From Styela clava (lineage: Eukaryota): DNA of 64,000 nucleotides. Within the stretch, counting starts at the first letter, position 1. The number at the start of each line of letters is the position of its first letter. Below, in pieces: positions 9,001 through 12,000 of this stretch. The stretch lies in contig NC_135261.1 in NCBI RefSeq assembly GCF_964204865.1, positions 8,990,001 to 9,054,000 of the forward strand. The letters run 5' to 3'. A program made the position numbers.

Positions 9001-12000
9001 GACCATCAAAATGCCGCGGACTGGTGGAACTATATGAAATTGTGGTGATGCGTTATGCGCAAATAAGTTCCGATCAACGCGACTACACAACTAAAGATTC
9101 AGGAAAAAGGCTTTTGGCGGCATAATGCTTTTTCTATCTAGAGGTACTCTGATGCATTATATACGCAATGAAGCCAAATTCCATTTGTTACAGAATCAAG
9201 AATGCTCAAATTCTTGGAAGTCACGTTTACACAGAAGACTGTACAATACATTCTTCTGAAAATTCTCGACTGTGCATATCAACGGTATTTCAGGAAATAG
9301 TAAAAACATCTTCTCCACTCTACGAAGCAACGACAAAATGTATTGTACAGTTGTCTCAAAAGTCGGGTACGAATATAATAGTTTGCATGAATCTAATGAC
9401 CACGACGACACCATATGAAATACTTACAAAATGACTTATACCTAAAAATACTTACAAATTTCCAATATATCATTTAAGGATTAGAAAATCGTAATTATTT
9501 TTTCTATGAAATGTGCTATTTTCACCAGGCAGTAGCGGCACATTATTACACATTACATGTTATACATGGCCAGCCATATTAAATGCATGTTATGATAATC
9601 GCAGTTTTATACAATTTACAGCAGAAAAACCTCCCGAGAAAATGGCATCAAACAAAAGATGTGATCTGATAATCTGCACCCAAGATCATCAACACTGCGA
9701 TGAGAACAAAGGTGTATGTATATGTGATTCTGGATATAAATATAATTTAGGAAAATGCAGGCTCATTTCTAATAAAACTACAGAGAATGCAAATAGCAAA
9801 TGCAATGATGTTTCTTGCGAAGGAGTACACCAACATTGCGACGAAGATAATGGAAATTGTGTGTGCAATGATGGTTATGAGGAAGTATCTGGGCAATGCC
9901 AAACCGCCATATTTCCATCTAGCGCTGATAAACTTGATTCTGAAAATAAATGCTGCGGTGTGACTTGTAAAGAACCGCACCAGCGCTGTGATGCAGAAGT
10001 GGGTGCGTGCGTTTGCGACGTCGGTTTTAAAACCGTTTCAGGAAAGTGTATAGCATAAATGGTTGTTAGATGAATGTTATGTTACCATATATTGCTAATT
10101 TGTAGATTGGCTCTGACTTGCAAGTCACCCGTTCACCCTTCAGCTTCAACGCCCACGTGAATGAAGGAAACTTTAGAAAACTCTGTTTGATTTTATTCTC
10201 AGATTTCCACGATACACAGAATATAAATCTTATAACATTTATCCAGACTAGCTTAGAATGGTTTACATCGTCTTCTCTCTCTATCGAAAGATATCGGAGT
10301 CGTATTTATACGTTGATCATAAATCCAATTAAAAGCTGTAAACGTGAGCTCGTGATTTACGTTATTAACAGAAACTCCTGTTATCTTCATAAGGGTAATT
10401 ATGTACATCGTACGGATGGGAACTTAGATATAATTATTTCAATCAGTGCCAAAGGTCTTGAGAATATAAATTTTAATTTGATAATGACTGGGTGGAACAT
10501 GTTATGTTTCTTAAACTGGTGTAATTTGATTCCTACGAAAGTCTTTGTTCGAATTTTGGGAAAAAATAACTTTGTCATGATGATTTCAACATGAAATGGG
10601 GTAGATTTGGGGGTTAGTTGCTATATTATCTCCCCATCTTACTAACTGGAAGTTTAAAGATTTGGCACCCTCTAATAAATTGAAAATATATAGTAAAATA
10701 CAATACACAATGCTAAAATTAATGATATATATATATAGGTCAAAAAAATATTTACATGTATATGATCTACAATGAGACAAGAAATTGAAGTAAAGAAAGT
10801 TTATAGAAAGGGTAAAGGTTGTAAAGTAGAATTACAGAAGGATGGCGTATTTTTATTTGAAAAATTTTGGTTTGGACGGTTAAAACATATTTTCAATTCA
10901 ATGTTTTTCGCTAAGTTAAAATACTTATACTCGCTTTATCGCATTGTTACGATTTTGTAGACCTAGTTGGTCAATATATGCTTGTCCCATGTCGGGAAGA
11001 AAAAACGCGTTGCGACCTAGTTGGTCAATATATGCTTGTCCCATGTCGGGAAGAAAAAACGCGTTGCGACCTAGTTGGTCTATATATTTGTCCCATGTCG
11101 GGATGAAAAAAACGCGTTGCGACCTAGTTGGTCTATATATGCTTGTCCCATGTCGGGAAGAAAAAACGCATTTTTAAGTTTATGCCATCTCAGGGCTTTT
11201 TTGAAAAAATAACGCTTTTGGATACAATTTTTGTTAAACGAGCTTATTATTTCACCGTTCTATATGACGGCTTTGTAAATAATTAAAAGTATGACTCGCT
11301 CGAATCTACTTTTAGAGAGTATTTTAATGATAACGAAATCTATTTAATCGAAAAGGAATGTTAACCACAAATATTTAATAATATAAATCTTTTTAAAGGT
11401 ATTTGAAATTACAATATTCAAAGTTGTTACCATTAATTAATTTATAAAAATTGAAAGTCGAATGAAACGCCATGTGTATATATAAGAAGAAAAAGAAGTA
11501 CTTTACCTTAGTAATAGTGGAAGAATGAAAAATGTCTGTCTCAATGAGGAGAAAAACCTGCAAATCATGAAACAAATTGTGGAATTACATGCTCCTGATC
11601 TGTATATCCATTAGGTAAGCGCGACAATTTCTCTATTGTTCGGAATAGAGCGCGTAATTTACAGTAAAACAGTCCATATAGTTCATTGTTTTCAACAGTT
11701 CGTTTTTGATTAGGTTTTTCACCTCGAACATATATCATGTTCTAAAAGAGTTCATTTCGATCGATGTTCAATACAGTCCATATTCATGATTTTAACGTTT
11801 CCAGAGTCCGTTACCATAGTTCAACTGTTTTCAATTGAGATTATTGTCTTTTCATAATGTTTTTGATTATTTCGGCTTGTCAGCAATTTGCTACTTCAAT
11901 CGTTGTTCCAGGCAATTTGAATCTCCCCGACGTTCGTAAGTTCGCACGTTTTGTGGAGACGGTTTCTCGGCACTTATTGAAAGCTTTCGCTTGGTCAGCT

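What the first reader, a model, noticed from the sequence alone, without database searches (positions are those of the whole stretch)
10049..10197. The two LTRs share U3-R but have different U5 ends
On the element's (minus) strand the LTRs are near-identical until ~17 nt after an AATAAA (plus-strand TTTATT at 10192-10197), roughly the R/U5 boundary. After that, the 3' LTR has 126 nt (10049-10174) and the 5' LTR has a different 16 nt (12097-12112), although both end in ATGCTATA. Standard reverse transcription copies one U5 into both LTRs. The asymmetry therefore implies a post-insertion deletion, recombination between two subfamilies, or an unusual replication route.
Basis: partly seen in the sequence, partly recalled or inferred. 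Interest (0 to 1): 0.65.

Follow-up and report, generated by a model that had tools for sequence, protein, structure and literature searches.

The report
Retrotransposon whose two LTRs differ
A small retrotransposon with no genes of its own, recently inserted inside a host gene, has two end-repeats that match except for their last stretch; this looks like a scar of recombination or deletion, not a new way of copying.

Summary
Window 10049-12563 (minus strand) is a 2,515-nt LTR retrotransposon with no detectable genes. It has a 4-5-bp target-site duplication, a TGG-type primer-binding site, a purine tract, and one TATA box and one AATAAA per LTR. It sits antisense inside a coding exon of a Cys-rich repeat gene of a tunicate-like genome.

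The LTRs share 451 nt (450 identical). After that, the 3' LTR has 126 nt and the 5' LTR has 16 nt. Only the last 9 nt (TATGCTATA) are the same.

New here:
- No clean deletion or insertion converts one end into the other. The last 16 nt differ at 3 positions, against 1 of 451 in the shared part.
- The 6 nt before the long U5's end motif are the exact complement of the spacer plus PBS start beside the other LTR. So the long form looks like a genuine U5.

My best reading (0.45) is that two U5 versions of one family were combined in one copy, either during reverse transcription of two unlike RNAs or by later gene conversion. A private complex deletion remains a serious rival.

The decisive census of other genomic copies could not be run, because no eukaryotic DNA collection was open. 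Interest is modest: a known kind of oddity in an undescribed element.

The parts
10044..10048 (.). left copy of the target-site duplication (AAGTG; AGTG if 4 bp)
   Evidence: same 5 nt at 12563-12567
10049..10625 (-). 3' LTR, 577 nt
10049..10174 (-). long U5 version, 126 nt (the finding); ends in TATGCTATA on the element strand; the part nearest R (about 10100-10165) is richer in G+C (0.53-0.60 in 30-nt windows)
10058..10063 (-). 6 nt found only in the long U5, exact complement of the spacer plus the first 4 nt of the PBS at 12091-12096 (9-nt inverted repeat 10055-10063 / 12091-12099)
   Evidence: P about 4e-4 in a fixed register
10076..10103 (-). internal 28-nt look-alike (21 of 28) of short U5 + spacer + PBS start (12083-12110); weak
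   Evidence: 67 of 2000 shuffles score as high
10175..10625 (-). part of the 3' LTR shared with the 5' LTR (predicted U3 and R), 451 nt
   Evidence: 450 of 451 identical to 12113-12563
10192..10197 (-). only AATAAA of the LTR on the element strand (twin at 12130-12135)
10303..10310 (-). only TATAAATA of the LTR on the element strand (twin at 12241-12248)
10626..10640 (-). polypurine-tract-like stretch next to the 3' LTR (13 of 15 purines)
10626..12096 (-). interior, 1,471 nt, no recognisable gag, pol or env remnant
   Evidence: 0 of 28 stop-free pieces of 30 aa or more reach a Pfam cut-off
10960..11169 (.). 54-nt tandem repeat, 3.9 copies, inside the interior
12079..12094 (-). primer-binding-site-like stretch starting TGG, 2 nt after the 5' LTR; true length and tRNA unknown
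   Evidence: no tRNA gene in the window
12097..12563 (-). 5' LTR, 467 nt
12097..12112 (-). short U5 version, 16 nt, same last 9 nt as the long one
12563..12567 (.). right copy of the target-site duplication
9513..10048 (+). host coding exon, left piece (Cys-rich repeats), ends 2 nt into a codon
12568..12985 (+). host coding exon, right piece; 12568 is a third codon position, so the frame runs on across the insertion site

Best explanation
The finding is the U5 end of the 3' LTR of a young, non-autonomous LTR retrotransposon. Its two LTRs carry two different versions of U5, with separate histories. One is 126 nt and the other 16 nt. Both keep what a U5 needs: they start after the poly(A) signal region and end in the same 9-nt terminal motif, the end that an integrase would read.

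I take both to be transposition-competent U5 variants circulating in one family whose members share U3-R. On this reading the copy is a chimera. The most likely route is reverse transcription in a particle that held two unlike RNAs. [quoted passage not shown] The 5' LTR took its U5 from the other RNA, either by an intermolecular second strand transfer or by the minus strand running on through the intact 5' end of the acceptor RNA. The alternative route is gene conversion from another copy after insertion.

Shown: the element's anatomy; that the ends are replaced, not simply deleted; the shared end motif; the long U5's complementarity to the PBS start; and one diverged LTR relative elsewhere.

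Inferred: that both versions exist in other copies, and the recombination route.
For: (1) A clean indel is excluded. The short 16 nt match the last 16 nt of the long form at 13 of 16 positions (or 1 mismatch plus 1 gap in 17 columns), against 1 difference in 451 in the shared part. Fisher one-sided p = 1.3e-4 and 3.7e-3.

(2) The unlike stretch fills almost exactly the predicted U5. It starts 17 nt after the only AATAAA and stops 9 nt before the LTR end. Functional variants would show this pattern. A random deletion rarely would.

(3) The 6 nt before the end motif in the long form are the exact complement of the spacer plus first 4 PBS bases that lie beside the other LTR (P about 4e-4). So the long form looks like a U5 that evolved next to this PBS, not like foreign DNA.

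(4) The intact target-site duplication (5 of 5) and the host repeat period argue for one integration event and against unequal crossing-over between two loci.

(5) The family is not a singleton. One unnamed record, P0121, matches 71 of 79 residues of the reading frame that happens to run through U3.

(6) There are precedents. Intermolecular second strand transfer giving proviruses whose two LTRs have different parents: PMC5651808, Introduction and Discussion part 1 read. Rice elements with a duplication but LTRs of different ancestry: bioRxiv 10.1101/452573, abstract and passages read. Frequent pairwise recombination in the plant element Onsen: PMC5668417, abstract and passages read.
Against: No second copy with either U5 type was seen. 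The existence of two variants is therefore inferred from one locus.

The R/U5 boundary is predicted, not mapped.

U3-R are identical at 450 of 451 positions. So the two supposed parents would have to share U3-R almost perfectly while differing completely in U5.

Second strand transfer is described as generally intramolecular (PMC5651808), so the proposed route is rare.

A 16-nt U5 is very short, and nothing shows that it works.

The statistics in (1) lose force if the shared part has been homogenised by gene conversion.
Confidence: 0.45

Rival explanations
1. Private complex lesion. The parent RNA had the long U5 and both LTRs were long. The 5' LTR then lost about 110 nt and gained a few unmatched bases. 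This happened either after insertion (end-joining with filler) or as a copying error during plus-strand strong-stop synthesis, which by the standard scheme marks only the 5' LTR.
For: Indels are the commonest cause of LTR length differences (general knowledge). The long form looks like the native U5 for this PBS. The short form keeps partial likeness to the long form's end, 13 of 16. A 5-nt direct repeat flanks most of the extra segment (read).
Against: No clean deletion reproduces the short form: 3 extra differences sit in 16 nt, against 1 in 451 elsewhere. Excision between the 5-nt repeats does not reproduce it either. The lesion would have to spare, by chance, both the poly(A) region and the 9-nt end motif and PBS.
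Confidence: 0.28
2. Older element than it looks. An old indel in U5 was followed by gene conversion between the element's own two LTRs. Conversion keeps the 451-nt shared part alike, while the short stretch beyond the heterology drifts.
For: Gene conversion was predicted in 25% of LTR pairs in 15 plant genomes (PMC7251063, abstract read). This would explain why differences pile up only in the terminal stretch.
Against: The duplication is perfect (5 of 5). The host reading frames on both sides are still open for 178 and 139 codons, which suggests a recent insertion. An unexplained original indel bounded by R and the end motif is still needed.
Confidence: 0.12
3. Assembly or polishing artefact. 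Reads from different copies or alleles of the family were merged at one of the two LTR ends.
For: Repeats are where such errors occur (general knowledge). No reads could be seen.
Against: The element is only 2.5 kb on a contig of 21.36 Mb, so it is short enough to be spanned by single long reads. Both junctions are structurally sensible: the duplication on one side and the PBS on the other.
Confidence: 0.08
4. Systematic asymmetry. The family's replication makes a short U5 beside the PBS and a long U5 at the 3' end in every copy.
For: Only that the pattern is orderly and bounded by functional landmarks.
Against: No step of the established reverse-transcription scheme gives this result (PMC5651808). 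A transcript of this copy would carry only the short U5. There are no other copies to show a rule.
Confidence: 0.04

Closest known systems
'Abnormal' LTR retrotransposons of rice with unlike LTRs but intact target-site duplications (bioRxiv 10.1101/452573; abstract and passages read)
   Same: One integration event (duplication present), yet the two LTRs are not copies of each other. The authors explain this by recombination before integration.
   Different: In rice, the whole LTRs group with different family members in a tree of many copies. Here only U5 differs, U3-R are 450 of 451 identical, and no tree could be made.
Retroviral recombinants from particles with two unlike RNAs; intermolecular second strand transfer (PMC5651808; Introduction and Discussion part 1 read)
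   Same: A described route by which the 5' and 3' LTR of one provirus derive from different parental genomes.
   Different: That work concerns an exogenous virus with known parents. Here the parents are hypothetical and the element has no genes.
Non-autonomous LTR retrotransposons of animals (TRIMs of ants, cestodes and bivalves: PMC3532108 and PMC4558846 seen as search listing only; PMC6934838 passages read)
   Same: Two terminal direct repeats, an interior bounded by PBS and purine tract, no coding capacity, and dependence on an unknown autonomous partner.
   Different: TRIMs are under 1,000 bp with repeats of 100-250 bp (PMC6934838). This element is 2,515 bp with LTRs of 467 and 577 nt.
LTR elements with non-canonical termini (PMC5659011; search listing and start of abstract only)
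   Same: The ends are not TG...CA.
   Different: Here the ends are TA...TA with a 7-nt terminal inverted repeat. No relation to those plant subfamilies was tested.

Membership tests
LTR retrotransposon (structural definition) | two long direct terminal repeats | tested here: met
   451 nt shared, 450 identical
LTR retrotransposon (structural definition) | short target-site duplication flanking the element | tested here: met
   AAGTG on both sides. The host 150-nt repeat period is restored by removing 2,519 nt.
LTR retrotransposon (structural definition) | primer-binding site complementary to a tRNA 3' end next to the 5' LTR | tested here: inconclusive
   TGG lies 2 nt after the LTR. There is no tRNA gene in the window to compare, so the tRNA is unassigned.
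LTR retrotransposon (structural definition) | polypurine tract next to the 3' LTR | tested here: met
   13 of 15 purines on the element strand, against 5 of 15 for the opposite orientation
LTR retrotransposon (structural definition) | TG...CA termini (called common in PMC5659011, start of abstract) | tested here: not met
   termini are TATAGCA...TGCTATA
autonomous LTR retrotransposon / endogenous retrovirus | gag and pol (reverse transcriptase, integrase) reading frames or their remnants | tested here: not met
   0 of 28 stop-free interior pieces and 0 of 4 LTR reading frames reach a Pfam cut-off. No genes are recognisable, so there are no breaks to count.
TRIM | total length under 1,000 bp, terminal repeats 100-250 bp (PMC6934838) | tested here: not met
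   2,515 bp; LTRs 467 and 577 nt
TRIM | non-coding interior that starts with a PBS and ends with a purine tract | tested here: met
LTR elements with unlike LTRs formed before integration (10.1101/452573) | target-site duplication present | tested here: met
LTR elements with unlike LTRs formed before integration (10.1101/452573) | each LTR, or LTR part, groups with a different set of family members | not testable with these tools
   There is no other copy in the window. No eukaryotic DNA collection was open. The one protein-level relative covers U3 only.

The most novel reading that the evidence does not exclude
The asymmetry is a rule of the family, not an accident. Its replication would regularly give a minimal 16-nt U5 beside the PBS and a 126-nt U5 at the 3' end. 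In that case the two LTRs of a retroelement need not be copies of one template.
Probability: 0.04. Interest if true: 0.8.

Novelty: new member of a known kind. Interest (0 to 1): 0.3.

Why it matters
LTR pairs are assumed identical at birth, and that assumption underlies the dating of insertions. A copy whose LTRs differ from the start in one module would be a small counter-example from an animal genome. It would also be a natural marker of which RNA end feeds which LTR.

If two U5 variants that share U3-R do exist, the locus records recombination between co-packaged retroelement RNAs in a tunicate-like genome. It would also show how little U5 an element may need.

If the short end is a private deletion, it matters only as an annotation detail.

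Either way, the copy interrupts a coding exon, so it marks recent activity of a family that has no genes of its own.

Tried and rejected
- Other copies in the window: none. BLASTN of the element against the window gave 7 rows: 1 self, 2 LTR against LTR, 4 from the internal tandem repeat.
- Other LTR pairs in the window: none among 7 direct-repeat families of 80 nt or more.
- Using the chance reading frame through the LTR as a handle in the protein sets. This gave 1 hit among 18 candidates, and 2 hits at E up to 0.001 among 1.84 billion representatives. P0121 covers U3 only. P0122 (E 4.5e-4, a 31-residue stretch of a 1,035-aa protein) I took for chance and did not follow.
- Exact scan of genome contigs with a 28-mer next to the U5 boundary: 0 matches. 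That collection holds only bacteria and archaea.
- Foreign small RNA or tRNA-derived insert in the long U5: 0 Rfam matches at gathering score for the whole window, 0 at E up to 1 for 9990-12620, and 0 tRNAs.
- Special structure of the long U5: z = -0.72, with 46 of 200 shuffles folding as well.
- Self-priming, meaning the PBS pairing with the start of the transcript: none among the 25 longest of 94 inverted pairs. I did not see the other 69.
- The 126 nt as host sequence: rejected by the duplication and the host repeat period.
- Opposite orientation of the element: rejected.
- Mispriming that would carry PBS and leader into the 3' LTR: rejected, because the 126 nt are not the sequence that follows the 5' LTR.
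- Nested transposon in the 3' LTR: no terminal inverted repeats seen by eye, and removing the segment between its 5-nt flanking repeats still does not give the short form.

Full report
**1. The observation**

The plus strand holds a direct repeat, 10175-10625 and 12113-12563. It is 451 nt long with 450 identical bases; the one mismatch is at 10492/12430. To the left of the shared part, the first copy has 126 nt (10049-10174) and the second has 16 nt (12097-12112). Both stretches begin TATAGCATA on the plus strand, so on the element strand both LTRs end TATGCTATA. That is 9 shared bases, and the 10th differs. The coordinates and counts in the finding are right.

**2. What the thing is**

On the minus strand the region has the full anatomy of an LTR retroelement:
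- LTRs of 467 nt (5', 12563-12097) and 577 nt (3', 10625-10049).
- A 7-nt terminal inverted repeat, TATAGCA...TGCTATA.
- TGG 2 nt after the 5' LTR (PBS-like stretch, plus coordinates 12094-12079).
- A purine tract directly before the 3' LTR (13 of 15 purines, 10640-10626).
- One TATAAATA (10310-10303) and one AATAAA (10197-10192) per LTR, in that order.

The opposite orientation fails. The plus strand of the LTR has no AATAAA, and only 5 of 15 bases are purines at the corresponding place.

The flanks carry AAGTG on both sides (10044-10048 and 12563-12567).

An independent check comes from the host. The element lies in a coding exon built of 150-nt Cys-rich repeats. The unit starting at 9963 recurs after 2,669 nt and then after 150 nt. 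Since 2,669 = 150 + 2,519, the interruption equals the element (2,515 nt) plus a 4-nt duplication. So the whole stretch 10049-12563, including the 126 nt, is inserted DNA.

The left host piece ends 2 nt into a codon, and base 12568 is a third codon position of the right piece. The frame therefore runs on across the site. I searched the two host pieces apart and did not join them.

The interior (10626-12096, 1,471 nt) has no recognisable gene:
- 0 of 28 stop-free pieces of 30 aa or more reached a Pfam cut-off. Three pieces gave 5 sub-threshold matches, the best at E = 0.001 and below its cut-off.
- 0 of 4 reading frames in the LTR matched anything.

With no gene remnants, there are no breaks to count. 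The interior holds a 54-nt tandem repeat of 3.9 copies (10960-11169). The element is thus non-autonomous. At 2,515 bp, with LTRs of 467 and 577 nt, it is too large for the TRIM definition of under 1,000 bp with repeats of 100-250 bp (PMC6934838, passages read).

**3. The surroundings**

The window looks like a tunicate genome. An intronless MMAA/MeaB reading frame (48127-49275) has its best named relatives in ascidians, at 56-59% identity. Unnamed records reach 64-69%. Its own contig is 21.36 Mb. Nothing in the window was taken for human.

The host gene's left piece matches a Cys-rich TSP1-type Pfam model at 34 bits (cut-off 27). The right piece scores only 18.5 bits. The feature search suggests EB/EGF-like repeats, but all scores were under 0.9, so these are leads only.

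**4. The two U5 ends compared**

The short 16 nt are not contained in the long 126 nt.
- The best local alignment puts them on the last 17 nt of the long form, with one mismatch and one gap. Without gaps, 13 of 16 match.
- Against 1 difference in 451 nt of shared LTR, this excess is unlikely by chance: Fisher one-sided p = 1.3e-4 ungapped and 3.7e-3 gapped.
- As a local alignment it is only modestly above shuffles; 37 of 2000 shuffles reach its score.

So no clean deletion from the long form, and no clean insertion into the short form, explains the pair. A 5-nt direct repeat flanks most of the extra segment (read), but excision between those repeats does not give the short form either.

The 6 nt that precede the shared 9-mer in the long form (10063-10058) are the exact complement of the spacer plus the first four PBS bases beside the 5' LTR (12096-12091). 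Together with part of the shared motif, this makes a 9-nt inverted repeat, 10055-10063 against 12091-12099. The chance of that in a fixed register is about 4e-4, or about 3e-3 if seven registers are allowed. In this copy the two arms are 2 kb apart. They would be neighbours only in an RNA whose 5' LTR carried the long U5. I read this as a sign that the long form is a native U5 that evolved beside this PBS. I did not build or fold any such joined sequence.

The long form also holds an internal 28-nt look-alike of short U5 + spacer + PBS start, with 21 of 28 bases matching (10103-10076 against 12110-12083). Since 67 of 2000 shuffles score as high, this is weak.

The long U5 is not unusually structured: z = -0.72, and 46 of 200 shuffles fold as well. 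It matches no Rfam family: 0 at gathering score for the window and 0 at E up to 1 for 9990-12620. It also matches no tRNA.

**5. Where the unlike stretch sits**

It begins 17 nt after the only AATAAA and ends 9 nt before the LTR end. It therefore fills almost exactly the predicted U5, sparing the poly(A) region, the terminal motif and the PBS. The R/U5 boundary is a prediction; no transcript end was available.

**6. How it most likely arose**

In the standard scheme both U5 copies descend from the single U5 at the 5' end of the template RNA (PMC5651808, Introduction read).

Best reading (0.45): the pair reflects two U5 versions with separate histories, both fit for transposition, in a family that shares U3-R. 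This would explain three things:
- the bounds of the unlike stretch;
- the conserved end motif;
- the excess of differences near the end.

The chimera could form in a particle with two unlike RNAs. One route is an intermolecular second strand transfer, which gives a provirus whose 5' and 3' LTR have different parents (PMC5651808, Discussion part 1 and legend of its Figure 4). The other is my own inference: after an intermolecular first transfer, the minus strand runs on through the intact 5' end of the acceptor RNA. That leaves a heteroduplex in the 5' LTR, which later resolves. Gene conversion from another copy after insertion would leave the same picture.

Precedents exist:
- Rice elements with duplications but LTRs of different ancestry (bioRxiv 10.1101/452573, abstract and passages read).
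- Frequent pairwise recombination in Onsen (PMC5668417, abstract and passages read).
- Du et al. 2010 on LTR swapping I know only from the reference list of PMC5668417. The paper is not held.

**7. Rivals**

- Private complex lesion of the 5' LTR (0.28). This could be an end-joining event after insertion or a copying error in plus-strand strong-stop synthesis. It is the simplest alternative. It needs filler bases and a lucky placement.
- Older element whose shared LTR part was kept alike by intra-element gene conversion (0.12). Conversion was predicted in 25% of LTR pairs in plants (PMC7251063, abstract read). This would weaken my statistical argument. The perfect duplication and the still-open host frames speak for youth.
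- Assembly or polishing error (0.08). It cannot be excluded without reads.
- Systematic route (0.04). It has no support beyond the orderliness of the pattern.

**8. What stayed unchecked**

- The window has no other copy.
- Genome contigs holds only bacteria and archaea, and it gave 0 matches to a 28-mer beside the U5 boundary.
- The protein sets, searched with the chance reading frame that runs through the LTR, gave one relative only: P0121, from an unnamed record, matching 71 of 79 residues. It covers U3 and says nothing about U5. It shows only that the LTR family has at least one diverged copy elsewhere.
- The tRNA that would prime at the PBS is unassigned.

**9. Verdict**

The element is an undescribed, non-autonomous LTR retrotransposon that recently interrupted a host exon. 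Its unlike U5 ends are a replacement, not a simple deletion. That points, with moderate confidence, to two U5 variants combined by recombination, which is a known kind of oddity. Interest is modest (0.3) unless the census shows a rule.

Noticed in passing
window 9513-10048 and 12568-12985 (+), with further units to about 13000: The element interrupts, in antisense, a coding exon made of 150-nt Cys-rich repeats. Pfam TSP1_TSH7A-B_C scores 34 bits on the left piece; the EB/EGF-like names are leads only. The reading frame continues across the insertion site, so this haplotype carries a disrupted gene copy.
   Followed up: partly
window 46564-47157 (+) and 48127-49275 (+): Two housekeeping genes lie side by side as single uninterrupted reading frames. 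One is an exosome component of the EXOSC1/CSL4 type (197 aa). The other is the mitochondrial GTPase MMAA/MeaB (382 aa), whose best named relatives are ascidians at 56-59%.
   Followed up: partly
window 10960-11169: A 54-nt tandem repeat of 3.9 copies (94% matches) lies inside the element's non-coding interior.
   Followed up: no
window 59947-60310: An array of 26-nt tandem units, 10 overlapping 130-nt registers at spacing 26. It is overlapped by reading frames of 105-117 aa on the minus strand.
   Followed up: no
window 53476-53861: A 193-nt unit is duplicated head to tail at 97% identity.
   Followed up: no
window 15863-16056: A 97-nt unit is duplicated head to tail at 85% identity. It looks like a small Cys-rich exon plus its intron start, perhaps part of the same repeat-gene family.
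   Followed up: no
window 3020-3226, 3446-3539 and 62520-62728: Further short tandem or near-tandem repeat families: 56-57-nt spacing near 3.1 kb, and 116-nt spacing near 62.6 kb.
   Followed up: no
protein P0121 (unnamed record, contig of 1,790 nt): An 86-aa predicted protein that is really a chance reading frame through a related LTR's U3. It matches 71 of 79 residues and shows a second, diverged copy of the LTR family in public data.
   Followed up: partly
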